This document shows, in pieces, positions 1-8,820 of a DNA stretch of 28,652 nucleotides. A program made the translations under genes and the position numbers. Within the stretch, counting starts at the first letter, position 1, and each line of letters starts with the position of its first letter. The notes beneath the pieces were generated by a model, which had not been told where the DNA came from, did not search any database, and saw only the letters and a program-made list of their open reading frames with translations. The stretch lies in NCBI GenBank assembly GCA_046076415.1, contig JBJTRZ010000636.1, positions 1 through 28,652 of the forward strand. Reading direction: 5' to 3'. The DNA is from Armatimonadota bacterium. Lineage in GTDB: Bacteria > Armatimonadota > Armatimonadia > Armatimonadales > Armatimonadaceae.

Positions 1-44
1 TGGCCTTGGGCCTGGCCGCCCGGGACAGCCTGATCGGTTCGTAG
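1..44 (+). CDS. pilM: 3' end of probable type IV pilus assembly protein PilM (partial)
   Basis: Frame from nt 3 reads ALGLAARDSLIGS*, resembling the PilM C-terminal A(V/L)GLALR motif, and lies directly upstream of pilN. Only 13 codons are visible. Confidence 0.6.
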   Translation, partial: ALGLAARDSLIGS

Positions 45-137: not shown

Positions 138-905
138 ATGCTGCGCATCAATCTATTGCCCGCGTACATCGCGGAACAGCGCAAGACCCGCATGGCATGG
201 GTCGCCACCGGTTTCGGTGTCGCGGCCGTGGTTGGCGGGTTGATCGGCTACGAGTTCGCCTACCTCCAGCCCAAGGTCTCCGAGATGACCCAACAGGCCC
301 AGAAGGCGGATTCCGAGGCCAGTGCGGTTGAAAAGCTGGAGCAGGACGCCAAGAACGAACTTGCAAAGATCCAGCCGATCCAAGCGAAGGTCACCTTCGT
401 GAAGGGCGTGCAGTACTTCAACCTGCTGGTTCCTCAGATCTACCGGAATGTGGCGCGCTACACCTACAACAAGGTCGAGTACAGCTCCATGAATGCGTCG
501 GGGGACACCCTCACCATCAACGCGATGGTTCAGGATCTCTCCGACGTTGGGCGTTTTTACCTGACGCTGTTCGCCAACCCCGACATAACCGCGTTGAGCA
601 TCAAGGGCATGCCGGGTTGGCCCAACGCCACCACCGCATCCAATCCGCTGCCGGGTGAAGGCAATGTCAACCCGGATCGCGGTGGATTCCCGCTCGGCGT
701 CACCGCGAAGCTCGCGCAGGCAGTTGCTCCGCCCGCTTTCGCGGGAGCCCCCGCGGCCGCCGGCGGCGGCATGGGCGGGATGATGGGGGCCGGCGGCGCC
801 CCGATGATGGGCGGAATGATGAGCGGGGGCATGGCCGGTGGAATGCCCGGCGGCGCCGGTGGAGGCAGCATGGGTGGTTCCGGCGGAACGCAGAAGGGCG
901 AATAG
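138..905 (+). CDS. pilN: Type IV pilus assembly protein PilN-like with Gly/Met-rich C-terminal tail
   Basis: Hallmark N-terminal INLLP motif (MLRINLLP), one TM helix, coiled coil, then a periplasmic domain. AAGGA SD upstream. Position after pilM. Confidence 0.85.
   Translation: MLRINLLPAYIAEQRKTRMAWVATGFGVAAVVGGLIGYEFAYLQPKVSEMTQQAQKADSEASAVEKLEQDAKNELAKIQPIQAKVTFVKGVQYFNLLVPQIYRNVARYTYNKVEYSSMNASGDTLTINAMVQDLSDVGRFYLTLFANPDITALSIKGMPGWPNATTASNPLPGEGNVNPDRGGFPLGVTAKLAQAVAPPAFAGAPAAAGGGMGGMMGAGGAPMMGGMMSGGMAGGMPGGAGGGSMGGSGGTQKGE
762..902 (+). repeat. Gly/Met-rich coding low-complexity tail of PilN
   Basis: Encodes GGGMGGMMGAGGAPMMGGMMSGGMAGGMPGGAGGGSMGG...; near-identical copy in pilO. Confidence 0.9.
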
Positions 906-923
906 GGCGAGGAAAGCACGACC

Positions 924-1691
924 ATGTCCAAGATTACTCGGGCCCAGATCTACATCATTGGCGCCGTCCTCGTCGTCATCGCCGGTGTCGGCATATTCTT
1001 TGGCTTGATCAAGCCGTCGATGGAAGAATACGACGCTCAGGAAAAGAAATTCAACGACCGGAGCACCGTGGCTGCTCGGCGCGGTCAGGCCGAAAACGGC
1101 CTCAAGGACGCCAAGAAGCAAGTCGCCCAGGCGGAAGCCGATTGGGGAGTGTATCTCGATCGATACATGCCTCCGATCGATGTCACCAACACGTACAAGG
1201 CCTGGCAGTCGCTGGTCAACGAACAGGTCAATGTCCTGGGGCCGATGCTTGACAAATTCGTGAAGGCGGACAAATCGGTTCGCCTGCAGCAGTACGGGTT
1301 TTCGTTGCCTGCTGCGCCGGATGATCCCAATGCGGCGCTCAGCGAACTCTTCGTGTTCAGCCCGGGATCGATTCAGGTTGCGGGAACGTTCAAGAACGTG
1401 CTGCGGCACGTGGAGCGTTGGAACAACTTCGGACGACTGGCACTGGTAACGGGACTCCAGTTGCAGGGCAACTCCCCGAACCTGGTCGGGCAGTACGGCG
1501 TCACCATTTACGAATTCACCCGCGGCGACAAGGCCAAGGCGGTGATCATCCCGCAGGCCGGCGGTGGAGCCGGGGGTGGCATGGGCGGCATGATGGGTGG
1601 CTCGGGCGCCATGATGGGCGGAATGATGAGCGGTGGCATGGCCGGCGGAATGCCGGGCGGTGCGGGTGGCGGAAGCATGGGTGGAAAGTGA
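924..1691 (+). CDS. pilO: Type IV pilus assembly protein PilO-like with Gly/Met-rich C-terminal tail
   Basis: N-terminal TM helix (IYIIGAVLVVIAGVGIFFGLI), coiled coil, and a PilO-like core (IQVAGTFKNVLRHVERWNNFGRLALV). Follows pilN. GAGGA SD. Confidence 0.75.
   Translation: MSKITRAQIYIIGAVLVVIAGVGIFFGLIKPSMEEYDAQEKKFNDRSTVAARRGQAENGLKDAKKQVAQAEADWGVYLDRYMPPIDVTNTYKAWQSLVNEQVNVLGPMLDKFVKADKSVRLQQYGFSLPAAPDDPNAALSELFVFSPGSIQVAGTFKNVLRHVERWNNFGRLALVTGLQLQGNSPNLVGQYGVTIYEFTRGDKAKAVIIPQAGGGAGGGMGGMMGGSGAMMGGMMSGGMAGGMPGGAGGGSMGGK
1572..1688 (+). repeat. Gly/Met-rich coding low-complexity tail of PilO
   Basis: Encodes GGGMGGMMGGSGAMMGGMMSGGMAGGMPGGAGGGSMGGK. Confidence 0.9.
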
Positions 1692-1705
1692 TCCGAGCGA
1701 GGATT

Positions 1706-2572
1706 ATGAACGGAATGAACAACCAAGCGATCGCCATTTCGCTGCTTCTCGGCTTGACCGCGTTGACGGGATGCACGAGTTCGGACGATGCGGGTTCCGC
1801 GGGTGCGGGAACCGCTGCGCCGGCCCCGGCGGGCGCGGGTCCGACCGCTGGCGGAACCGGCGCGTCCCCGATGGGAGGGATGCCTGCCGCAGCCGGTGCC
1901 GGTGCTACCGGCCAGGTCGCCGGGTCGGAAGCGGGCAAGGACCTTGACTCTTGGTCGACCGTGGCCAAGCGGGTGCCGGGTTTTCCGGCTCCGGCGGCGG
2001 GTCAGGCGGGAGCCGGCAAGCCGGCCGAGGTTGCGGCGGGTGTTCCGCCGCCCAATCGCGCGGACCCGTTCGAGTCCTTCCGCAAAATCGTCGTACCGGA
2101 AATTCCCGCGTACACGATCGCGCTGCCGAGGCGTCTCGCGGCGGAGTACCGTCCGCCGGCCCCCAAGGTCGACGACGTGGATCCGAACCTGACCAAAGGT
2201 CCGTTGCCTCCGGTTCCCCGCCGAATCGCCGGTGTGATGTACAATGGGGCCATCACGGCGATCCTTGAAACGGGCGATGCCAACGGATCGGTTCAACACG
2301 ATGTCATTCGACCTGGTTCGGTGGTGCCCTCCGGTATCGCGGACCCGGCGGATCTCGTGGTCGAATCGATCACGATGAAGGCATTGGTTCTGCGCGCAGC
2401 GGATGGACGTTCCGTGGAAGTGAAGTTGTCGGGGCTTCCTCCGGCGGTGGCGGATGCGTTGCGCGGACAATTCGGCAACGGCACGGGAAATGCCGGCGGC
2501 GATGCGGGCATGGGTGTCGGTGCGGGAGGCGGCGGTGGTGCCGCCGGTCCCGGCGCGAAAATGGGTAATTAG
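1706..2572 (+). CDS. Lipoprotein in the PilP position (PilP/GspC-like)
   Basis: Lipoprotein signal ending LTALTG-C, Ala/Gly/Pro linker, RADPF motif, and a C-terminal beta domain (IAGVMYNGAITAILETG...ITMKALVL). Start uncertain: GTG 1688, ATG 1706 or ATG 1715. Confidence 0.6.
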   Translation: MNGMNNQAIAISLLLGLTALTGCTSSDDAGSAGAGTAAPAPAGAGPTAGGTGASPMGGMPAAAGAGATGQVAGSEAGKDLDSWSTVAKRVPGFPAPAAGQAGAGKPAEVAAGVPPPNRADPFESFRKIVVPEIPAYTIALPRRLAAEYRPPAPKVDDVDPNLTKGPLPPVPRRIAGVMYNGAITAILETGDANGSVQHDVIRPGSVVPSGIADPADLVVESITMKALVLRAADGRSVEVKLSGLPPAVADALRGQFGNGTGNAGGDAGMGVGAGGGGGAAGPGAKMGN

Positions 2573-2637
2573 GCGTTATCGGCGAGCGTTTTGGTGTGGT
2601 CCGGAACCCGACGGGTTTCCGGGATTCGTGAGGTGAC

Positions 2638-3261
2638 ATGATGAACAATGCGATTCGATTTTCGATGATGGTTGTCGGACTGGCGACGGTTGGCACGGTC
2701 GTGTCGGCGCCGGCGCTTGCGCAACAAGAGCGCAATTCCAGTACGGTCACCCTCGACCTCAAGGATGCTCCGATCCGCACGACGCTCGAAATGGCGTTCA
2801 AGCAGGCCGGCATCACCAATTACGTGATCGACAACAATGTTGCGGGATTCGTCACGATGACGATCACGGAGCAACCGTTCGAGAACGCGTTGAAGTTGAT
2901 CATGCGTGCCGCGACGGTTCCGCTCACCTACATCAAGGAAAACAACGTTTACATCGTCAAGCCGCGACAGATTTCGCAGCCCCAGACGACTCCTGCGCCC
3001 GACATCAATCGTGAAGAGGAAAACTCCCAGGACAATGTCACGTTCGAGCGCATTCCCCTCACCTACATCGACCCGATGGACCTGCAACTTGCCTTTGGTC
3101 AGATCCTCTATGTTCGTCAATTCATGGGCCGGATGATGTCCGGTGGCATGGGTGGCATGGGCGGTGGGATGGGCGGCATGGGCGGCGGCATGGGCGGCAT
3201 GGGCGGCGGCATGGGTGGTTTTGGAGGAATGGGTGGATTCGGCGGAGGCCGCAACTTCTAA
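2638..3261 (+). CDS. Secreted stand-alone secretin N-terminal (STN/N0) domain protein with (GGM)n tail and no secretin barrel
   Basis: GAGGTGA SD, Sec signal (..SAPALA-QQ), STN-like domain (VTLDLKDAPIRTTLEM...VAGFVTMTITEQPFENALKLIM), a partial N-domain (ERIPLTYIDPMDL), then a Gly/Met repeat to the stop. Confidence 0.75.
   Translation: MMNNAIRFSMMVVGLATVGTVVSAPALAQQERNSSTVTLDLKDAPIRTTLEMAFKQAGITNYVIDNNVAGFVTMTITEQPFENALKLIMRAATVPLTYIKENNVYIVKPRQISQPQTTPAPDINREEENSQDNVTFERIPLTYIDPMDLQLAFGQILYVRQFMGRMMSGGMGGMGGGMGGMGGGMGGMGGGMGGFGGMGGFGGGRNF
3124..3249 (+). repeat. Coding tandem repeat (GGMGGGM-type units)
   Basis: Imperfect tandem ggc-ggc-atg / ggc-ggc-ggc-atg units encoding MMSGGMGGMGGGMGGMGGGMGGMGGGMGGFGGMGGFGGG. 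Confidence 0.9.
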
Positions 3262-3357
3262 TAGTCGCTCGAAATGTTGCCAGGGACCGTGCAGGAATTC
3301 GCGCGGTCCCGTTGAAAGAAAACGGGATTGCGCGAACACACGATGTGGAGGACTTGT

Positions 3358-5028
3358 ATGCGTAACCAGTCGCGGCGCGCCCAGCGAGGCGTGCTGATGG
3401 CGGCCTGGGCACTGACGGCCCCGGTGTTGATGATTCAGCCGGCTAGGGCTCAGGATTCGGTTCCCGCTGGGGCGACCGTCACTTTGGAGTTGCGGGATGC
3501 CCGCATGCAGGATGCCGTCACGGCGCTCACCGCCAAGAGCGGCATGAACATCGTGATTGTTCCCGGTGCGTATCAGAACGTTACGCTCAAGCTGGCGGAA
3601 ATGCCTGTGGACAAGGCGCTCAAGGCGATCGCCTCGGCCGCCGGTGCGACGCTCGAGGAAGCCGATGGTATCTACTACCTTCGTCCCGCGGGCTTCAAGC
3701 AGCCAGAGCCGAAGGTCGAAGCGAAGCCGGCCCCGGCTCCCGTGGCCGAACCCGTGGTGGTCGCGCCCCGCAAGGGTCCGATGATCTGGGCGAAGGTCGA
3801 GCTGAAGTTCCTTCCTCCGAAGGCGGCGCTTGCCATTCTCAAGAACGACCAAGCGGGCCAACTCATGGCATCCGACACGCGGTTCGCTGAACTGCAACCG
3901 CGGGTATTGGGTGGCGCGCCCGCCCAGTTCGCCTTGAATCCCTCGAATCCGTTGGTGCCGGCGGCTCCGGCCAATCGCGGTCCCATTCAAGGGGGTTCCC
4001 CTGAAGTCGGCGGAACCGATGGCGCCGGACAACGCGGCGGCATGGGCGGTTTCGGCGGTGGCATGGGCGGCATGGGCGGCGGCATGGGTGGCATGGGTGG
4101 CGGCTTCGGCCAAGGTGGCCTCAACGGCGGTGGCGGAGCGGGCCGCGGTTTTGGCCAGGGCGGTGCCCAGGGTCAAGGCGGCGGTGCACTCCTTCCCGAC
4201 GGAATCCGCAACCTGATCACCGGCGACTCGGACAACTCGCTGATCGTCCAGGGTGAAGCGCAGGCCATCGAGGAACTCAAGCAGATCATTCGCTTCCTCG
4301 ATGTTGCGCCGAAGCAGTTGATGATCAAGGCGGAATTTGTCACGGTCAACATCTCCGATGCCCAGGGTTTCGGTATCGACTGGAAGATCACGCCGGCCGG
4401 CAACCTCGACATGAACATCGCTCCCACGACGTTCAACGCGGCGCCGAGCGTGACTATGGCATACGCCTCGGGTAATGCGGTGGCCGCGTTGCGCGCCGCC
4501 GCCACGAAGAACACGTCGAATATTCTTCAGGCGCCGATGATCACCACGTCGAACAACCAACCGGCGATGATCCAGACGTTCCTGACCACGACGATCTTCA
4601 TCAACCAACAGGTGATCACGGCGTTTGGGTCCTTCACCCAGACGTTGCCGATCCAGATTCCGGTTCAGAGCGGGCTGAACGTGACGCCGCACATCAACGG
4701 CGACGGTACGATCAGCATGTTCCTGACGCCGCAACTGTCCTCGTTCCGCGTGGTCCCCGGTGTTGGCACCTCCCCTGGTTTTGAAACCTCCACGCAGTTC
4801 CTCACCACGTTCCGACGCCTCAAGAACGGCGAAACGATGGTGATCGGTGGTTTCATCACCAATCGCGAGGACAAGAACGAGACTCGTGTTCCGTTGCTCA
4901 GCGATCTGCCGATCATTGGAAATCTGTTCACACAGCGTTCCAAGGCGGCAAACGGACAGGAAATTCTGGTCTTCATCACGCCGACGATCCTGGATGATCC
5001 CGGTTCGACCACGGGCGTGAATCTGTAG
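3358..5028 (+). CDS. Secretin (PilQ/GspD family)
   Basis: GGAGG SD 6 nt before ATG 3358, signal peptide, STN domain, N3-like domain (NSLIVQGEAQAIEELKQIIRFLD), and secretin core (KQLMIKAEFV...GETMVIGGFI...RVPLLSDLPIIGNLF...EILVFITPTI). Confidence 0.92.
   Translation: MRNQSRRAQRGVLMAAWALTAPVLMIQPARAQDSVPAGATVTLELRDARMQDAVTALTAKSGMNIVIVPGAYQNVTLKLAEMPVDKALKAIASAAGATLEEADGIYYLRPAGFKQPEPKVEAKPAPAPVAEPVVVAPRKGPMIWAKVELKFLPPKAALAILKNDQAGQLMASDTRFAELQPRVLGGAPAQFALNPSNPLVPAAPANRGPIQGGSPEVGGTDGAGQRGGMGGFGGGMGGMGGGMGGMGGGFGQGGLNGGGGAGRGFGQGGAQGQGGGALLPDGIRNLITGDSDNSLIVQGEAQAIEELKQIIRFLDVAPKQLMIKAEFVTVNISDAQGFGIDWKITPAGNLDMNIAPTTFNAAPSVTMAYASGNAVAALRAAATKNTSNILQAPMITTSNNQPAMIQTFLTTTIFINQQVITAFGSFTQTLPIQIPVQSGLNVTPHINGDGTISMFLTPQLSSFRVVPGVGTSPGFETSTQFLTTFRRLKNGETMVIGGFITNREDKNETRVPLLSDLPIIGNLFTQRSKAANGQEILVFITPTILDDPGSTTGVNL
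4036..4110 (+). repeat. Coding Gly/Met/Phe repeat inside the secretin N-domain loop
   Basis: Encodes GGMGGFGGGMGGMGGGMGGMGGGFG, the same unit as the upstream STN-protein tail. Confidence 0.9.
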
Positions 5029-5046: not shown

Positions 5047-5082
5047 AACGGGGCCGGTCCTTCATGGATCGGCCCCGTTTTG
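5047..5082 (+). terminator. Intrinsic terminator after the pilus/secretin operon
   Basis: AACGGGGCCGGTCC-ttcat-GGATCGGCCCCGTT stem (one G-U) whose 3' end runs into a TTTTGT tract. Confidence 0.75.
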
Positions 5083-5092
5083 TGCGCCACGG

Positions 5093-5098
5093 TACAAT
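5093..5098 (+). promoter_or_regulatory. Putative -10 box (TACAAT) for a leaderless aroK transcript
   Basis: TACAAT lies 5 nt before ATG 5104, with no SD motif, just after a terminator. Confidence 0.5.
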
Positions 5099-5103
5099 GC
5101 GCC

Positions 5104-5685
5104 ATGCCGACGGAGGGTCTTTCTTCCTGCGATCCGCGCCCACTGCCGGAGAATATTGTCTTGGTCGGGTTCATGGGTTGTGGTAAGTCGACGCTGGGTC
5201 GACTGCTCGCGGAACGTCTTGGTTGGCGTTTTGTCGACACGGACCGAGTCGTCGAAGCGGCCGCCGGGATGACCATTGCGGAAATCTTTACCGAATCGGG
5301 CGAGGCGGCATTCCGGGACAAGGAAACCGAAGCCGTCCTTGGTGCCTGCACTGGCCTTGGCCAAGTAATAGCGACGGGTGGCGGCGCGGTTATGCGGGAT
5401 GCGAACGCGCGGGCGATGCGTGCTGCGGGGATGGTGGTTTGGTTGACCGCACGTGCCGAGGTCATCGCCGCGAGGACTTCCCGCCGCCAAGGGCGCCGAC
5501 CATTGCTCGATGGCGATGAGGATCCTCTGATCCGTATCCATCTTATGCTGGCCGAGCGTGGACCTATTTACCGTTCGGTGTGCGACCGAATTGTGGACAC
5601 AAGCGATCGACCACCCCGGCAAATGGTGGCCGAATTGGAACGTGTGGTTCGAGGCATTTCCCGTGTTCCGGAGCGGAGCCGGTGA
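5104..5685 (+). CDS. aroK: Shikimate kinase
   Basis: NIVLVGFMGCGKST Walker A, FVDTD, IAEIF, GEAAFR, VIATGGG and RPLL motifs. Confidence 0.95.
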   Translation: MPTEGLSSCDPRPLPENIVLVGFMGCGKSTLGRLLAERLGWRFVDTDRVVEAAAGMTIAEIFTESGEAAFRDKETEAVLGACTGLGQVIATGGGAVMRDANARAMRAAGMVVWLTARAEVIAARTSRRQGRRPLLDGDEDPLIRIHLMLAERGPIYRSVCDRIVDTSDRPPRQMVAELERVVRGISRVPERSR

Positions 5686-6803
5686 AACGTACCGTCGAGG
5701 TGGCATTGGCCGGAGGTCGTGGATACACGATTCATATTGGTCCCGGGCTTCGCCATGGAATCGGTGGATTGGCACCGTTCGTGGGATCGACCGGACGAGT
5801 GGTGGTGCTTGCGGACGCCAACGTTTTGAGCGATTCGGTGCCATGGGGCGTCGAATTGGCCACGGAATTGGTTCGTGCTGGATGGCGGGTAGATTCGCTT
5901 GGCTTTCCCTTGGGAGAAGTCCGGAAACAATGGCCGTCGGTTGAAAAAATGCTCGACGGACTGTACACGCTCGGTGATGTCGACCGCAAATCGATTCTGA
6001 TCGCCGCGGGGGGTGGTGTTGCGGGCGATGTGGTCGGGTTCGTCGCGTCGCTCTGGATGCGCGGTGTGCGCTACGTGCAATTCCCCACGACATTGCTTGC
6101 GGCGGTGGATTCCAGTGTCGGGGGCAAGACCGGAATCGATTTCCGTTCGGGCAAGAACTTGGTCGGTGCGTTCCACCAGCCGAGTGCGGTGTTCGTTGAT
6201 ACCGATTGCTTGGCGTCGCTGCCGGTGGAGGAGTTGCGATCGGGTGCGGCGGAGGTCGTCAAGTACGGATTCATCGCCAATGCGGATTTGCTCGACCGTC
6301 TTGTCGATTCCCATGGGGGGGCGTTCTGGGAGAATCCCGAGACGCTCTCGGAGGTCATCGCGGAGTCGTGCCGGATCAAGGCCGAGGTGGTGGTTGCCGA
6401 CGAGCGTGAGGAATCCGGGCTTCGTGCCACATTGAACTACGGGCATACCATCGGCCACGCGCTCGAAGGGGCGACCGGCTACGCGCGCTTCCGGCACGGG
6501 GAAGCGATTGCGATCGGAATGGTTTCGGCGGCCTGCATCGGCGAAGTGGTCGGGTGCACGCCTCCGGATGTGCGCTGTCGTACGGTTGCGGCGTTGCGAT
6601 CCCTTGGTCTGCCTTGGCGTCTTCCCGACGACATTTCCGACGATCTGTTGGTTGCGATTACGCGACGCGACAAGAAGGCCTCTTCGGGTGCGGTTCGGTA
6701 TGTACTCGCGGACGAAGTTGGTCGGGTGGGCCTTCGGGCGGTGGAAGAGGCGCAGGTGTTCGAGGGATTGGCGCGGCAACGGGCGATGCGGGAGTTGGAT
6801 TGA
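5682..6803 (+). CDS. aroB: 3-dehydroquinate synthase
   Basis: GGGVAGDVVGF, RGVRYVQFPTTLLAAVDSSVGGKT, GKNLVGAFHQP, AEVVKYG, LNYGHTIGHALE and HGEAIAIGM motifs. GTG start overlaps the aroK stop (GTGA). Confidence 0.95.
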   Translation: MKRTVEVALAGGRGYTIHIGPGLRHGIGGLAPFVGSTGRVVVLADANVLSDSVPWGVELATELVRAGWRVDSLGFPLGEVRKQWPSVEKMLDGLYTLGDVDRKSILIAAGGGVAGDVVGFVASLWMRGVRYVQFPTTLLAAVDSSVGGKTGIDFRSGKNLVGAFHQPSAVFVDTDCLASLPVEELRSGAAEVVKYGFIANADLLDRLVDSHGGAFWENPETLSEVIAESCRIKAEVVVADEREESGLRATLNYGHTIGHALEGATGYARFRHGEAIAIGMVSAACIGEVVGCTPPDVRCRTVAALRSLGLPWRLPDDISDDLLVAITRRDKKASSGAVRYVLADEVGRVGLRAVEEAQVFEGLARQRAMRELD

Positions 6804-6994
6804 AAACCATTTCACCGATCTGGGACATTGCCGGTGCGGCTTGGGTCGTTCTGGCCGTCGCCGTGCATTACCTTCCGCAATTGGGACTGCCTGTTCCCTT
6901 CGCGGCGGCTACGGCGGTCTACGCGGCGTTGGTGATCCTGGGGCTCGCTCGCCTCGCCCTGTCGTTGCTTGGCAGATCGGGGAGCGCCGTATGA
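6800..6994 (+). CDS. Small (64 aa) two-TM membrane protein of unknown function
   Basis: TTG start overlaps the aroB stop (TTGA) and the stop overlaps the kinase ATG (ATGA). Two hydrophobic stretches (IAGAAWVVLAVAV; FAAATAVYAALVILGLA). Confidence 0.6.
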   Translation: MKTISPIWDIAGAAWVVLAVAVHYLPQLGLPVPFAAATAVYAALVILGLARLALSLLGRSGSAV

Positions 6995-8820
6995 CCGGGG
7001 CCGAGGGTGCTGCAGGCAACGTTCCCACGTTTCCTGCGGAGATGGATGGGCGGTACGAGCTTCTTGAGCGCCTCGGCCGCGACCTGCTTACCACCGCCTA
7101 TCGTGCCAGGGACCGGGTGCGCAATCGGATCGTCGTGGTGCGGTTCCTGCGGGACGAATGGGTGGGGCACGCGGGAATCGCGCAGGGATTGCAACGGGGT
7201 GTCGCCGATACATTGGCCTTCCGGGACACCGGTGTGGTTCCGGTGGTGGATCTTGGGGCGTGCGCCGACGGACGGGTTGTATTCGTGGAGGATGTCGATC
7301 GCGGTTCGACATTGGCGGATCGGGTCCGCCACTCCGCCCCGTTTCCTCCGGAAACCGTCCGCTCGCTGGCCGTCGCCATCGCGGATGCGGTCGGCTACGC
7401 CCATTCCCGTGGGCTCGCGCATGGTGACTTGCGTTCCGAGCGCGTTTTGGTTGGCGGCGAACCTTCGGCCCGGGTTGGCGGATTCGGCCAAGCCGCTGCG
7501 GTTCGCGCCGTGGCCGATATCGATCCCGCGACTTTGGCGACGACAGTGGCGACCATCGCTCCCGAGGTGGCGACCTTGGGTCCGACGATGTCCGGCGACG
7601 TCTACGCCCTTGGCGTGATGATGTACGAGATGTTGGTGGGTCGGGCACCGTTCCTTGGAAATCCCGTCGAGGTGGCATTGCAGCATGCCCGCACGGAAGC
7701 GCCCCGCGTATCGGATACCGTTCCCGGTACTCCCTCCGATTTGGACGCGATCGTCGCCCGCTGTCTTGCCAAGGCTCCGGGGGAGCGATTCGCCGACGGT
7801 CGGGCCTTGGCGAAGGCGCTGCGCCAGGGCGGAACCGCGGCGGCCCCGTCCGTTCCGGAGAGCCACGTCGTGGAGGTTGGCGAGCCGCCCACCGTGGCGC
7901 GGATTCAACCCGGGGTGCGGGGAGCCGTGCCGATCGAAGTTACGGAGGAAACCATGCCAAGGCGCACCGCGCGTCCCGTCGCCGCCCCACCGCAGGGCAA
8001 GCCACGCGGTGCAAGTTGGCTCACCATAGCGATGATGGCGAGCGCGTTCCTGTTGGTTGGTTCCATCGCGTTGGTCTTCTCATGGGTGAAACCCTTGCTG
8101 ACACCGGCGACGACGATTCTGGTTCCGAACCTGGTGGGAATGCCCCTCGGGGAAGCGGAGGCGCTCGCACGCGAGCGGGGATTCTCGGTCCAGGTCATCG
8201 ATCGCCAGTTTCGGTCCGACCCTCCCGCCGATGTGATTTATCAAATGCGGGACAAGATCGGGGTTCCGATACGAACGGGCCAACCGGTTGCCGTTTGGGT
8301 TTCGAAGGGTCCGGAAATGGTGGAGGTTCCGGATGTTGCCCGTATGCGCCTCGACAAGGCGCGCGAGGTATTGGAGCGCGCGGGTCTCAAACTTGGCGTG
8401 CAGACCCGGCAATACGATTTCACGGAAGCCGCGGGCAACGTGATCGAACAGGCGGGTTTGCCGGGGCAGCGCAAACCCCGCGGAACCGCGATCGATGTCG
8501 TGGTTTCGAAGGGTCCGGAACCGCAGGAGGAACCGGTACCGGAGGAGCCCGCGCCAAAGCCCGCGGAGTCCCGCAAATCGGAACCCCAACCGGCCTCGCC
8601 GGCCCCGCCGGAGCGCGTGTTCAGTGTCCCGTACAAGGTTCCGGACGACGGGAAGGCCCATCAGATCCGCATCGACGTGGAGGACGGCGACGGATTGCAC
8701 ACGGCGTACGATGAGTCGGTGGAAGGGGGCAAGGAGTTGAACGTCGAGGTGACGGTTTCGGGGAAACGGTACCAGATACGTCTCTACGACAACGACGTAT
8801 TGAAGGGAACCGCGCCGTGA
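6991..8820 (+). CDS. PknB/StkP-like membrane Ser/Thr kinase-fold protein with PASTA domains; catalytic motifs degenerate (probable pseudokinase)
   Basis: GRYELLERLG, APE and DVYALGVMMYEMLVGRAPF kinase scaffold, a TM helix, two PASTA repeats (VPNLVGM..., VPDVARM...) and a C-terminal beta domain. Confidence 0.85.
   Translation: MTGAEGAAGNVPTFPAEMDGRYELLERLGRDLLTTAYRARDRVRNRIVVVRFLRDEWVGHAGIAQGLQRGVADTLAFRDTGVVPVVDLGACADGRVVFVEDVDRGSTLADRVRHSAPFPPETVRSLAVAIADAVGYAHSRGLAHGDLRSERVLVGGEPSARVGGFGQAAAVRAVADIDPATLATTVATIAPEVATLGPTMSGDVYALGVMMYEMLVGRAPFLGNPVEVALQHARTEAPRVSDTVPGTPSDLDAIVARCLAKAPGERFADGRALAKALRQGGTAAAPSVPESHVVEVGEPPTVARIQPGVRGAVPIEVTEETMPRRTARPVAAPPQGKPRGASWLTIAMMASAFLLVGSIALVFSWVKPLLTPATTILVPNLVGMPLGEAEALARERGFSVQVIDRQFRSDPPADVIYQMRDKIGVPIRTGQPVAVWVSKGPEMVEVPDVARMRLDKAREVLERAGLKLGVQTRQYDFTEAAGNVIEQAGLPGQRKPRGTAIDVVVSKGPEPQEEPVPEEPAPKPAESRKSEPQPASPAPPERVFSVPYKVPDDGKAHQIRIDVEDGDGLHTAYDESVEGGKELNVEVTVSGKRYQIRLYDNDVLKGTAP

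What the first reader, a model, noticed from the sequence alone, without database searches (positions are those of the whole stretch)
138..5028. Type IV pilus/secretin machine carrying Gly/Met-rich modules on four components
Seen: GM-rich segments at the C-termini of PilN (10 Met by my count) and PilO (10), at the C-terminus of the STN-only protein (11), and inside the secretin N-domain loop (5). The lipoprotein also has MGGM and GMG patches. By topology all are periplasmic. Established: MxxM/MxM 'Mets' motifs bind Cu(I)/Ag(I) in CueO, PcoC and Ctr1, GGM repeats form the GroEL tail, and classical PilN/PilO lack such tails. Inference: a shared module running from inner to outer membrane could form a Met-rich mesh, a metal-binding or oxidant-scavenging lining, or a low-complexity assembly signal. 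This is the best candidate here for an undescribed variant of the T4P/T2SS machine.
Basis: partly seen in the sequence, partly recalled or inferred. Interest (0 to 1): 0.8.

Follow-up and report, generated by a model that had tools for sequence, protein, structure and literature searches.

The report
Glycine-methionine tails on pilus machine
A freshwater Armatimonadota bacterium builds its type IV pilus machine from parts that each carry a floppy, uncharged glycine/methionine-rich segment in the space between the two membranes; this is the local "methionine flavour" of a glycine-rich trait shared across the phylum, for which I found no description in the papers searched, and it more likely forms a flexible sticky collar than a metal-binding site.

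Summary
Only 7 such segments exist in the 3.46-Mb genome, and 4 lie in this operon.

The Met-specific interpretation is weakened. In 16 related genomes the same five proteins keep Gly-rich, almost uncharged segments at the same positions. The partner residue, however, changes by lineage: Met, Tyr/Pro, Phe or Leu. Across the phylum, Met-rich PilN/PilO tails recur in several families but are not conserved.

PilN and PilO tails match each other within a genome far better than between genomes. Here, 39 aligned codons show 2 amino-acid changes and 12 synonymous-only codons. This indicates concerted evolution under constraint.

The best reading is a flexible "sticker-spacer" module, similar in composition to GroEL tails and abductin, that forms a cohesive or elastic periplasmic collar. 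That function is inferred, not shown. Cu/Ag binding or oxidant scavenging could at most be a lineage add-on.

This scan has flagged the same glycine-rich trait before in other Armatimonadota genomes. I found no paper describing it.

The parts
3..44 (+). 3' end of pilM (last 13 codons ...ALGLAARDSLIGS + TAG). The rest of the gene lies at the end of contig C319.
   Evidence: Read directly. It matches the C-terminus of orthologous PilM. C319 ORF: 65% identity to G009 PilM, PF11104 PilM_2 at 7.9e-38.
138..905 (+). pilN (255 aa): N-terminal MLRINLLP motif, TM helix, periplasmic core, Gly/Met tail.
   Evidence: A profile of 15 orthologues hits M. xanthus PilN 3jc8_Na at E=6.9e-9. No Pfam hit for the single sequence.
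741..902 (+). PilN Gly/Met tail (aa 202-255; 46% Gly, 10 Met, 2 charged residues, both at the very end).
924..1691 (+). pilO (255 aa): TM and coiled-coil helix 6-81, helix 90-115, ferredoxin-like domain 120-198, disordered tail.
   Evidence: AF2 mean pLDDT 76.6. Top Foldseek hits are M. xanthus PilO 3jc8_Oa (7e-5) and P. aeruginosa PilO 2rjz/5uvr. Sequence hits to T2SSM/PilO are weak.
1542..1688 (+). PilO Gly/Met tail (aa 207-255; 49% Gly, 10 Met). Its last 25 aa are identical to a block in the PilN tail.
   Evidence: pLDDT below 50 for aa 213-255.
1706..2572 (+). PilP/GspC-like lipoprotein (lipobox LTGC, Cys23) with a C-terminal beta-domain and Gly-rich ends.
   Evidence: A profile of 15 orthologues has Neisseria PilP as its top PDB hits: 4av2_M (E=0.01) and 2ivw (0.067). 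Pfam PilP/T2SSC hit in 2 members each. Support is weak but consistent.
1826..1885 (+). Gly/Ala/Pro patch with MGGM near the N-terminus of the lipoprotein.
2462..2569 (+). Gly-rich C-terminal tail of the lipoprotein (GMG patch; only 2 Met, the weakest of the five segments).
2638..3261 (+). Stand-alone PilQ N0(-N1)-like exported protein (207 aa) with a Gly/Met tail.
   Evidence: TIGR02515 PilQ positions 3-116 at 4.1e-11. Sub-threshold STN hit. A copy sits directly upstream of the secretin in all 16 other loci examined.
3121..3258 (+). Gly/Met(/Phe) tail of the N0-only protein (59% Gly, 11 Met, 4 Phe). It is a 21-nt tandem array and ends in GGFGGGRNF.
3328..5028 (+). T4P-type secretin (longest ORF 566 aa; true start not fixed): N0 at 50-120, an N3-like domain split by the loop, secretin domain at about 330-555.
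   Evidence: PF00263 at 4e-34. Best NCBIfam match is PilQ, but below its cut-off. AF2. The profile hits solved GspD and PilQ chains.
3979..4206 (+). Gly/Met/Phe/Gln loop (aa 218-293) inserted between helix 1 and strand 2 of the N3-like domain. V. cholerae PilQ has about 12 residues at this position.
   Evidence: 21-nt tandem array at 4034-4104.
5080..6803 (+). aroK and aroB directly downstream of the secretin (context only; the two longest ORFs overlap, so the aroB start is later than 5580).
   Evidence: PF01202 at 4.7e-47; PF01761/PF24621.

Best explanation
This is the trans-envelope part of a type IVa-like pilus machine of an Armatimonadota bacterium. The gene order is pilM (cut by the contig end), pilN, pilO, a pilP-like gene, a stand-alone PilQ-N0 gene and the secretin.

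Each periplasmic component carries an intrinsically disordered, almost uncharged, Gly-rich segment studded every 3-4 residues with a hydrophobic residue. In this genus that residue is Met. In sister lineages it is Tyr(+Pro), Phe or Leu.

I propose that Met acts as an interchangeable weak hydrophobic "sticker" in a Gly "spacer", not as a specific ligand. If the parts are ring-forming with about 12-15 copies each, roughly 280 residues per protomer set (about 4000 per machine, an inferred figure) would crowd around the pilus conduit between the inner-membrane platform and the secretin N0/N3 rings. There they would form a flexible, self-cohesive, elastic collar or gasket. Such a collar could couple the two membrane subcomplexes, or seal the conduit around a moving fibre.

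PilN and PilO tails are kept alike within each genome. This suggests they act as a matched pair on the PilN/PilO heterodimer.

Shown here: the existence, position, composition, conservation pattern and concerted evolution of the segments. Inferred: disorder, periplasmic crowding, cohesion and the mechanical or sealing role.
For: - **Machine identity.** PilM PF11104. PilN profile to 3jc8 PilN at 7e-9. PilO fold. PilP-like top hits. N0-only protein to PilQ N-terminus at 4e-11. Secretin PF00263.
- **Specificity.** 4 of the genome's 7 Gly/Met segments are in this operon.
- **Position conserved, sequence not.** Gly-rich segments sit at the same five positions in most of the 16 other genomes of the order examined (secretin identity down to about 31%). 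A few members lack one on PilO or PilP. The partner residue switches M/Y/F/L/P, and charged residues stay at about 5% or less.
- **Phylum-wide tails.** PilN was found in 105 of 121 genomes. Tails are Met/Pro-rich in families f3, f13, f15, f27, Tyr/Phe in others and Ala/Pro in others.
- **Concerted evolution of the PilN and PilO tails.** The own-genome PilO tail is the best match for 8 of 17 PilN tails, where about 1 is expected. In this window, 39 aligned codons have 2 aa changes and 12 synonymous-only codons. The 25-aa identical block has 8 synonymous and 0 non-synonymous differences. The same matching is visible in distant families.
- **Contrast with the cytoplasmic part.** The cytoplasmic PilM insert in relatives is acidic and Pro/Ala-rich, not Gly-rich.
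- **Disorder.** AF2 pLDDT is below 50 for the tails and the loop.
- **Precedents by composition.** GroEL's (GGM)4M tails on a ring oligomer depend on flexibility plus hydrophobic attraction (PMC11978752). Abductin, with its [GGFGGMGGGX] repeat and 58% Gly, is a random-coil compressible elastomer (PMC9999432).
Against: - No experiment or structure shows where the segments sit or that they cohere.
- Whether the N3 loop points into the lumen or outward was not determined.
- Low pLDDT from a 14-15-sequence alignment is only suggestive of disorder.
- The flavour need not match between parts. In G014 and G011 the N0-protein tail is Gly/Met while the secretin loop is Gly/Phe. In most relatives the inner-membrane parts (GYPGG) differ from the outer-membrane parts (GGFGG).
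- Some relatives (G023, G028, G019) have little or no Gly-rich tail on PilO or PilP, so not every segment is indispensable.
- PilN/PilO tail matching could be maintained by gene conversion between adjacent repeats rather than by selection for pairing.
- Gly-rich segments of lineage-dependent flavour also occur on an unrelated conserved secreted protein. The trait is therefore not exclusive to the pilus machine.
Confidence: 0.5

Rival explanations
1. Met-specific chemistry. The MxxM/MxxxM-rich segments bind Cu(I)/Ag(I), as Mets motifs do. Alternatively they act as a periplasmic methionine sink for oxidants, or as a redox switch through Met-sulfoxide that protects or regulates the machine.
For: - MGGM, MGGGM and MM spacings are abundant.
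- Met-rich tails recur in several Armatimonadota families, and Met-rich secretin loops occur in other phyla. Met is therefore a favoured partner residue, not a one-off.
- The genome encodes MsrA and two Oxidored_molyb (MsrP/sulfite-oxidase family) proteins.
- Met-rich low-complexity domains that respond to oxidation are discussed in the literature (papers listed, e.g. PMC8394241; titles and abstracts only were read).
Against: - Orthologous segments in the same order have 0-3 Met and use Tyr/Phe/Leu/Pro instead. Met cannot carry the conserved function.
- There is no His, Cys or Trp co-ligand in the tails.
- No copper or silver genes are adjacent.
- Another secretin in the same genome uses Gly/Phe loops.
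- The presence of Msr genes is near-universal and does not discriminate.
Confidence: 0.1
2. Passive entropic spacers or tethers. The Gly-rich segments are non-interacting flexible linkers or bristles. They let the inner- and outer-membrane subcomplexes find each other across a wide or variable periplasm or through the peptidoglycan, without forming a cohesive phase.
For: - The secretin loop and the N-terminal patch of the lipoprotein do connect folded parts.
- Lengths vary widely between relatives, for example an N0-protein tail of 46 aa here against 97 aa in G008/G009.
- The N0-protein tail ends in a conserved GGFGGGR(N/G)F-like motif that could be a docking peptide on a tether.
- One earlier follow-up of this scan favoured this reading (e1-3693021).
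Against: - Three of the five segments (PilN, PilO, PilP-like) are free C-terminal tails with nothing beyond them to tether.
- Known periplasmic spacers such as TonB and TolA are, to my knowledge, Pro- or charge-rich. These segments are nearly uncharged with regularly spaced hydrophobic residues, a composition typical of collapsed, cohesive chains.
- Exact matching of PilN and PilO tails is not needed for a mere spacer.
Confidence: 0.2
3. Largely neutral repeat expansion. GC-rich 9/12/21-nt repeats expand by replication slippage in tolerant disordered regions and are homogenised between neighbouring genes by gene conversion. The flavour then reflects lineage drift, not function.
For: - 21-nt tandem arrays with 86-92% matches occur in the N0-protein tail and the secretin loop.
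- Copy number differs between congeners.
- The PilN and PilO tails share 95 nt at 82% identity.
- The flavour of an unrelated secreted protein (the C434 family) shifts by lineage, partly in parallel.
- An assembly gap falls inside the repeat in G005.
Against: - Segments persist at the same five positions across an order, and PilN/PilO tails across a phylum.
- In the PilN/PilO block, all 8 differences in 25 codons are synonymous. By my arithmetic this is about 5e-6 by chance if changes fell at random. The high synonymous divergence (about 0.5 per synonymous site) argues against very recent conversion.
- Charge is consistently excluded.
- A sample of 44 Acidobacteriota secretin ORFs shows such inserts are not a general by-product of secretin genes: 3 had a Gly-rich stretch (only 1 a long Gly/Tyr repeat) and none had Gly/Met.
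Confidence: 0.15

Closest known systems
T4aP alignment and secretin subcomplex PilMNOPQ (M. xanthus model 3jc8; P. aeruginosa PilO 2rjz/5uvr; N. meningitidis PilP/PilQ 4av2; V. cholerae PilQ 6w6m)
   Same: - Gene order pilM-N-O-P-Q followed by aroK-aroB.
- PilN INLLP motif.
- PilO fold and a PilP-like beta-domain.
- N0-N3-secretin architecture.
   Different: - Every periplasmic part carries a 35-76-aa Gly-rich disordered segment that is absent from the solved homologues.
- An extra stand-alone N0(-N1) protein sits before the secretin.
- No AMIN domains were detected.
- The N3-like domain is split by a loop of about 76-100 aa where V. cholerae PilQ has about 12 residues.
- Single sequences fall below the Pfam/NCBIfam cut-offs for PilN, PilO, PilP and PilQ.
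GroEL C-terminal (GGM)4M tails
   Same: - Gly/Met repeats on subunits of a ring oligomer.
- Disordered, uncharged and mildly hydrophobic.
- Function depends on flexibility plus hydrophobic attraction between tails (PMC11978752).
   Different: - Cytoplasmic chaperonin; there is no homology.
- GroEL tails are 13 residues. These segments are 35-76 residues and sit on five different proteins.
- Met is strongly conserved in housekeeping GroELs but not here.
Abductin (molluscan hinge elastomer, [GGFGGMGGGX] repeats)
   Same: The composition is almost identical to the N0-protein tail and the secretin loop. Abductin has 58% Gly, high Met, some Phe and about 1% Pro, and is a random-coil compressible rubber (PMC9999432). 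The tail here has 59% Gly, 24% Met and 9% Phe.
   Different: It is an animal extracellular bulk material that relies on covalent cross-links. The likeness is convergent composition only. Elasticity of the bacterial segments is untested.
Cohesive FG-nucleoporin and Met-rich low-complexity domains (sticker-spacer phases)
   Same: Uncharged Gly-rich spacers with regularly spaced Phe/Tyr/Met, anchored around a transport conduit at high local concentration. This comparison rests on my own knowledge and on titles listed.
   Different: These are eukaryotic and unrelated. No permeability-barrier or phase behaviour has been shown for the bacterial segments.
Mets-motif Cu(I)/Ag(I) binders (CueO insert, PcoC/CopC, CusF, Ctr1 N-terminus)
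   Same: MxxM/MxM-type spacing in a periplasmic or extracellular setting.
   Different: - No His/Asp/Trp partners and no cupredoxin or OB fold.
- Met is replaced by Tyr/Phe/Leu in orthologues.
- No copper-resistance genes in the neighbourhood.

Membership tests
T4aP PilMNOPQ machine | PilM (actin-like, PF11104) encoded directly upstream of pilN | tested here: met
   The last 13 codons lie at window 3-44. The remainder is on contig C319, with PF11104 at 7.9e-38. The gene is contiguous in relatives.
T4aP PilMNOPQ machine | PilN: conserved N-terminal INLLP-type PilM-binding motif, one TM helix and a periplasmic core | tested here: met
   MLRINLLPAY has invariant L/R/L/P columns. The profile hits M. 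xanthus PilN at E=6.9e-9. The single sequence gives no Pfam hit.
T4aP PilMNOPQ machine | PilO: TM helix, coiled coil and ferredoxin-like core | tested here: met
   AF2 model. Top Foldseek hits are PilO 3jc8_Oa, 2rjz and 5uvr. Sequence-level Pfam PilO/T2SSM hits are only weak, in 4 of 14 orthologues.
T4aP PilMNOPQ machine | PilP: lipoprotein with a C-terminal HR beta-domain that binds secretin N0 | tested here: inconclusive
   A lipobox is present. The profile's top PDB hits are Neisseria PilP, but at E=0.01 and 0.067. Pfam PilP/T2SSC hits occur in only 2 of 15 orthologues each. Binding was not tested.
T4aP PilMNOPQ machine | PilQ-type secretin (NCBIfam TIGR02515 at its cut-off) | tested here: not met
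   The PF00263 secretin domain is clearly present (4e-34). TIGR02515 scores 164.5 bits against a cut-off of 284.35. It is therefore a divergent T4P-type secretin, not a curated PilQ family member.
T4aP PilMNOPQ machine | Extension/retraction ATPases and platform protein present in the genome | tested here: met
   8 PF00437 matches over the cut-off and several PF00482 genes. Which of them serve this operon was not tested. Pilins were not searched.
Mets-motif Cu(I)/Ag(I)-binding segments | Clustered MxM/MxxM motifs | tested here: met
   MGGM, MMGGMM and MGGGM occur throughout the tails. This is trivially satisfied by any Gly/Met repeat.
Mets-motif Cu(I)/Ag(I)-binding segments | Ligand Met residues conserved in orthologues | tested here: not met
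   0-3 Met in the corresponding segments of most other genera of the order.
Mets-motif Cu(I)/Ag(I)-binding segments | Metal binding measured, or a copper/silver homeostasis gene context | not testable with these tools
   Binding needs ITC or spectroscopy. The adjacent genes are aroK, aroB and a PASTA kinase.
Cohesive sticker-spacer / elastomer-like disordered domains (GroEL tail, abductin, FG repeats) | High Gly, near-zero net charge, regularly spaced hydrophobic residues, predicted disorder | tested here: met
   Composition table. pLDDT below 50.
Cohesive sticker-spacer / elastomer-like disordered domains (GroEL tail, abductin, FG repeats) | Demonstrated self-association, gelation or elasticity | not testable with these tools
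   This requires purified peptides or in situ imaging.

The most novel reading that the evidence does not exclude
The Gly-plus-sticker segments of PilN, PilO, PilP, the N0 protein and the secretin together form a self-healing periplasmic gel, like FG-nucleoporins or abductin. This gel would both seal the open secretin around the moving pilus and couple the two membranes elastically.

PilN and PilO tails would be held identical by selection for in-register homotypic pairing. The sticker flavour would help keep paralogous secretin machines in one cell from cross-assembling. In this genome the operon uses Gly/Met, while the second secretin on contig C499 uses Gly/Phe.

In the Met flavour, oxidation to Met-sulfoxide would loosen the gel and so give a redox-sensitive gate.
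Probability: 0.15. Interest if true: 0.85.

Novelty: new variant of a known kind. Interest (0 to 1): 0.6.

Why it matters
Type IV pilus and secretin machines are among the best-studied envelope nanomachines, yet all structural models come from a few phyla with compact, folded periplasmic parts.

A whole phylum in which every periplasmic ring component carries an uncharged Gly-rich disordered module would add a new physical element to such machines. That element would be a flexible, possibly cohesive or elastic phase. It bears on two open questions:
- How an open secretin stays sealed around a moving fibre.
- How retraction forces are transmitted between the two membranes.

The Met/Tyr/Phe interchange and the within-genome matching of the PilN and PilO tails provide natural "mutants" for testing sticker-spacer ideas in bacteria. 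For this window specifically, the result tempers an attractive but unsupported metal-binding story.

Tried and rejected
- **Pfam and NCBIfam on the single proteins.** There were no hits for PilN, PilO or the lipoprotein, so profiles of orthologues and a fold search were needed.
- **The three other Gly/Met proteins of the genome.** These are a C434 secreted 650-aa protein, a C132 secreted 363-aa protein and a C252 PhyH enzyme. The first two have no family hit, and their neighbours are unrelated to pili. A link to the machine was therefore not established. The C434 family is conserved in 31 of 31 relatives, and its flavour shifts by lineage only partly in parallel with the pilus operon; G018 is discordant.
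- **Genome-wide Met preference in Gly-rich regions.** This is rejected. The same genome has Gly/Phe, Gly/Leu-Ile and Gly/Phe/Pro repeats on other proteins, including another secretin.
- **Gly/Met loops as a general secretin feature.**
  - A pattern-seeded search found Gly/Met(/Tyr) loops in secretins of Bryobacteraceae, Vampirovibrionales, Nitrospirales, Hydrogenedentes, Verrucomicrobiota and a proteobacterial MAG. That search was biased, because the tool used MGGMGGGM as a seed.
  - In an unseeded sample of 44 Acidobacteriota secretin ORFs, 3 had a Gly-rich stretch (only 1 a long Gly/Tyr repeat) and none had Gly/Met.
- **Msr genes.** MsrA and MsrP-family genes are present, but this does not discriminate.
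- **Apparent frameshift in the G005 secretin.** It is an N-run (assembly gap) inside the repeat, not a real break.
- **Literature.** Four searches found no paper on Gly-rich or Gly/Met segments of T4P or secretin components.
- **Sequencing runs.** No RNA holder is listed. The best DNA holder is a freshwater metagenome that may be the source sample.
- **Complex prediction.** Not used, because no specific folded interface is claimed.

Full report
**What is there**

The window is a whole contig (C636) of a 3.46-Mb, 661-contig MAG. Its best DNA holder is a freshwater metagenome.

Bases 3-44 encode the last 13 residues of PilM. They match the C-terminus of the orthologous PilM. The rest of pilM lies at the end of contig C319, with PF11104 at 7.9e-38.

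Five co-directional genes follow:
- pilN at 138-905.
- pilO at 924-1691.
- A lipoprotein gene at 1706-2572.
- A stand-alone STN/N0 protein gene at 2638-3261.
- A secretin gene at 3328-5028.

After these come aroK, aroB and a PASTA kinase.

**How the parts were identified**

Single sequences gave no Pfam or NCBIfam hit for the first three proteins. Alignments of 14-15 orthologues did:
- The PilN profile hits M. xanthus PilN (3jc8_Na) at E=6.9e-9. The N-terminal MLRINLLP motif is almost invariant.
- An AF2 model of PilO has mean pLDDT 76.6, with a TM/coiled-coil helix, a ferredoxin-like core and a tail below pLDDT 50. Its top structural matches are M. xanthus and P. aeruginosa PilO.
- The lipoprotein profile has Neisseria PilP as its two best PDB hits, but weakly, at E=0.01 and 0.067. 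Pfam PilP/T2SSC hits appear in a few orthologues.
- The STN-only protein matches positions 3-116 of the PilQ model TIGR02515 at 4e-11.
- The secretin has PF00263 at 4e-34. It scores best with PilQ but below that model's cut-off.

AF2 shows the secretin has an N0 domain at 50-120. It also has an N3-like domain whose first strand and helix (153-181) are separated from its last two strands and helix (293-324) by a stretch with pLDDT of about 30. In the alignment to V. cholerae PilQ (6w6m), the corresponding gap is about 12 residues.

The genome also holds 8 T2SSE-type ATPases and several platform proteins.

**Check of the observation**

| Segment | Gly | Other composition |
|---|---|---|
| PilN tail | 46% | 10 Met |
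| PilO tail | 49% | 10 Met |
| Lipoprotein patches | 43% | 4 Met |
| N0-protein tail | 59% | 11 Met, 4 Phe |
| Secretin loop | 54% | 5 Met, 3 Phe |

All contain at most five charged residues and no His.

A six-frame scan of the whole genome finds only seven Gly/Met segments, and four are here. The other three are on two orphan exported proteins and, oddly, at the C-terminus of a cytoplasmic PhyH dioxygenase. GroEL ends in a short GGGGGMGGMY.

The N0-protein tail and the secretin loop are 21-nt tandem arrays encoding GGMGGMG.

**Relatives**

The secretin has orthologues in 29 of 31 related genomes. I fetched 16 complete loci of the same order.

All have the gene order pilM, pilN, pilO, pilP-like, N0-only, secretin. 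Most keep Gly-rich, nearly uncharged segments at the same five positions. A few family-f2 members lack one on PilO or PilP. The partner residue changes by lineage:

| Genomes | PilN, PilO, PilP-like | N0 protein | Secretin |
|---|---|---|---|
| Congeners G008, G009 | Met | Met | Met |
| G014 | Met/Pro | Met | Phe |
| G018 | Tyr (PilN/O), Phe (PilP) | Leu/Phe | Phe |
| G015, G029, G030, G022, G024 | GYPGG-type | GGF-type | GGF-type |
| G011 | Phe/Tyr/Pro | GGMM | GGFQ |

So the conserved trait is Gly plus a hydrophobic residue without charge, not Met. The inner-membrane parts often share one flavour and the outer-membrane parts another.

In a phylum-wide sample, PilN was found in 105 of 121 genomes. 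Among the loci read, PilN/PilO tails are:
- Met/Pro/Gly-rich in families f3, f13, f15 and f27.
- Tyr/Phe-rich in others.
- Ala/Pro-rich in f22 and f26.

Met is thus a frequent flavour but an interchangeable one.

The cytoplasmic PilM of relatives carries a different, acidic Pro/Ala/Glu insert.

**Concerted evolution of the PilN and PilO tails**

The PilN and PilO tails share 95 nt at 82% identity. Over 39 aligned codons there are 2 amino-acid differences and 12 codons that differ only synonymously.

In the 25-residue block MMGGMMSGGMAGGMPGGAGGGSMGG, all 8 nucleotide differences are synonymous. About 17 of the 75 sites are synonymous. By my arithmetic this has a chance of about 5e-6 if changes fell at random. 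The synonymous divergence of about 0.5 argues against a very recent copy.

Across 17 genomes, a PilN tail's best-matching PilO tail is its own genome's in 8 cases, where 1 is expected. Scores are 45-65 within genomes against 10-30 between genomes for G000, G009, G014 and G018. The same matching is visible in distant families with entirely different repeats. An example is ASQGAPGG in both tails of G065, and further cases are G136, G104 and G046.

Orthologous tails therefore diverge quickly, while the two tails of one machine stay alike. Repeated conversion plus purifying selection, or co-evolution, both fit this. I could not separate them.

**Is it a general property of the genome or of secretins?**

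It is neither.
- The same genome has Gly/Phe loops in another secretin (C499), Gly/Leu-Ile repeats (C117) and Gly/Phe/Pro repeats (C60, C630).
- The C434-family exported protein is conserved in all 31 relatives. Its two Gly-rich regions also change flavour by lineage, only partly in step with the pilus operon.
- A collection scan used MGGMGGGM among its seed patterns, so it is biased. It returned secretins with long Gly/Met(/Tyr) inserts from Bryobacteraceae, Vampirovibrionales, Nitrospirales, Hydrogenedentes, Verrucomicrobiota and a proteobacterial MAG. It also returned an Abditibacteriaceae locus with the full Armatimonadota-like arrangement. In the proteobacterial GspD-like protein, the insert splits a Secretin_N domain exactly as it does here.
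- In an unseeded sample of 44 Acidobacteriota secretin ORFs, three had a Gly-rich stretch (only one a long Gly/Tyr repeat) and none had Gly/Met.

Gly/Met inserts in the secretin N3 domain are therefore sporadic elsewhere. The all-components trait belongs to Armatimonadota and close neighbours.

**Interpretation**

The data argue against neutral junk for three reasons: positional conservation, exclusion of charge, and the synonymous-only differences.

They also argue against a Met-specific ligand role as the conserved function. Met is replaced in orthologues, there are no co-ligands, and there is no metal-gene context. Incidental Cu(I)/Ag(I) affinity or oxidant sensitivity of the Met flavour remains possible and untested.

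Free C-terminal tails on three components are hard to reconcile with simple tethers.

The composition matches two known flexible, mildly hydrophobic Gly/Met systems:
- GroEL's ring-anchored (GGM)4M tails, whose function needs flexibility and hydrophobic attraction (PMC11978752).
- Abductin's [GGFGGMGGGX] random-coil compressible rubber (PMC9999432).

I therefore favour a flexible, self-cohesive or elastic collar formed by many copies of these segments around the pilus conduit. PilN/PilO tails would act as a matched pair. This is an inference; confidence for the functional part is about 0.4 and for the descriptive part about 0.9. Where the N3 loop points, and the stoichiometry, are not established here.

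**Novelty**

Four literature searches found nothing on such segments in T4P or secretin parts.

This scan has reported the same glycine-rich trait several times in other Armatimonadota genomes. Those notes are unchecked AI notes. I re-derived the conservation independently here.

This window adds three things:
- The Met flavour and its interchange with Tyr/Phe/Leu.
- The split between inner-membrane and outer-membrane flavours.
- The quantitative evidence for PilN/PilO tail matching.

Noticed in passing
window 2638-3261, and the orthologues in L021-L037: The stand-alone N0 protein's tail ends in a conserved short motif (GGFGGGRNF here; GGGRGF, GGFGR, GGGRGY and similar in relatives), usually with a C-terminal aromatic residue. 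It could be a docking or targeting peptide at the end of the flexible tail.
   Followed up: partly
G000 contig C434: 651-2600 (-) = L052: A 650-aa exported protein with no family hit and two long Gly/Met regions (24 and 23 Met). Its middle domain is conserved, mostly as a single match, in 31 of 31 related genomes, and its Gly-rich regions switch flavour (Met, Phe/Pro, Tyr/Pro) by lineage.
   Followed up: partly
G000 contig C252: 10731-11648 (-) = L053:5735-6649: A cytoplasmic PhyH-family dioxygenase (PF05721, 2.8e-33) ends in a GroEL-like MGSMGGG x3 tail. This is an unusual place for such a tail.
   Followed up: no
G000 contig C132: 3297-4388 (+) = L051: A 363-aa exported protein of unknown family with a central Gly/Met/Ser region of about 150 aa, lying between glnD and dnaG.
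   Followed up: no
G000 contigs C499, C117, C60, C630: The same genome carries other Gly-rich repeat proteins with different partner residues. These are a second secretin with GGF loops (C499, 898-aa frame), a GGGGL/GGGGI array (C117) and GFP-type repeats (C60, C630).
   Followed up: no
L021:1017-2456 (PilM of G009): The PilM of relatives is about 480-590 aa. It carries an acidic Pro/Ala/Glu/Val-rich insert of about 90 aa in the actin-like fold. This cytoplasmic low-complexity insert has quite different chemistry from the periplasmic segments.
   Followed up: partly
L039-L050 (loci of other phyla): Secretins of Bryobacteraceae, Vampirovibrionales, Nitrospirales, Hydrogenedentes, Verrucomicrobiota and a proteobacterial MAG carry 50-150-aa Gly/Met(/Tyr) inserts before the secretin domain. 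Several of them are TPR-secretin fusions of about 1000-1090 aa.
   Followed up: partly
L112 (G005:C32): The closest relative's secretin appears split into two frames, but the break is an N-run inside the Gly/Met repeat. It is an assembly gap, not a frameshift.
   Followed up: yes
window 5080-6803: aroK and aroB follow the secretin directly. To my knowledge this pilMNOPQ-aroKB arrangement is also known in proteobacteria, a striking conservation of synteny in a distant phylum.
   Followed up: partly
window 6991-8817: A PASTA-domain Ser/Thr kinase homologue (Pkinase 7.8e-20, PASTA 5.4e-22). Another first-reader note calls it a pseudokinase; I did not examine this.
   Followed up: no
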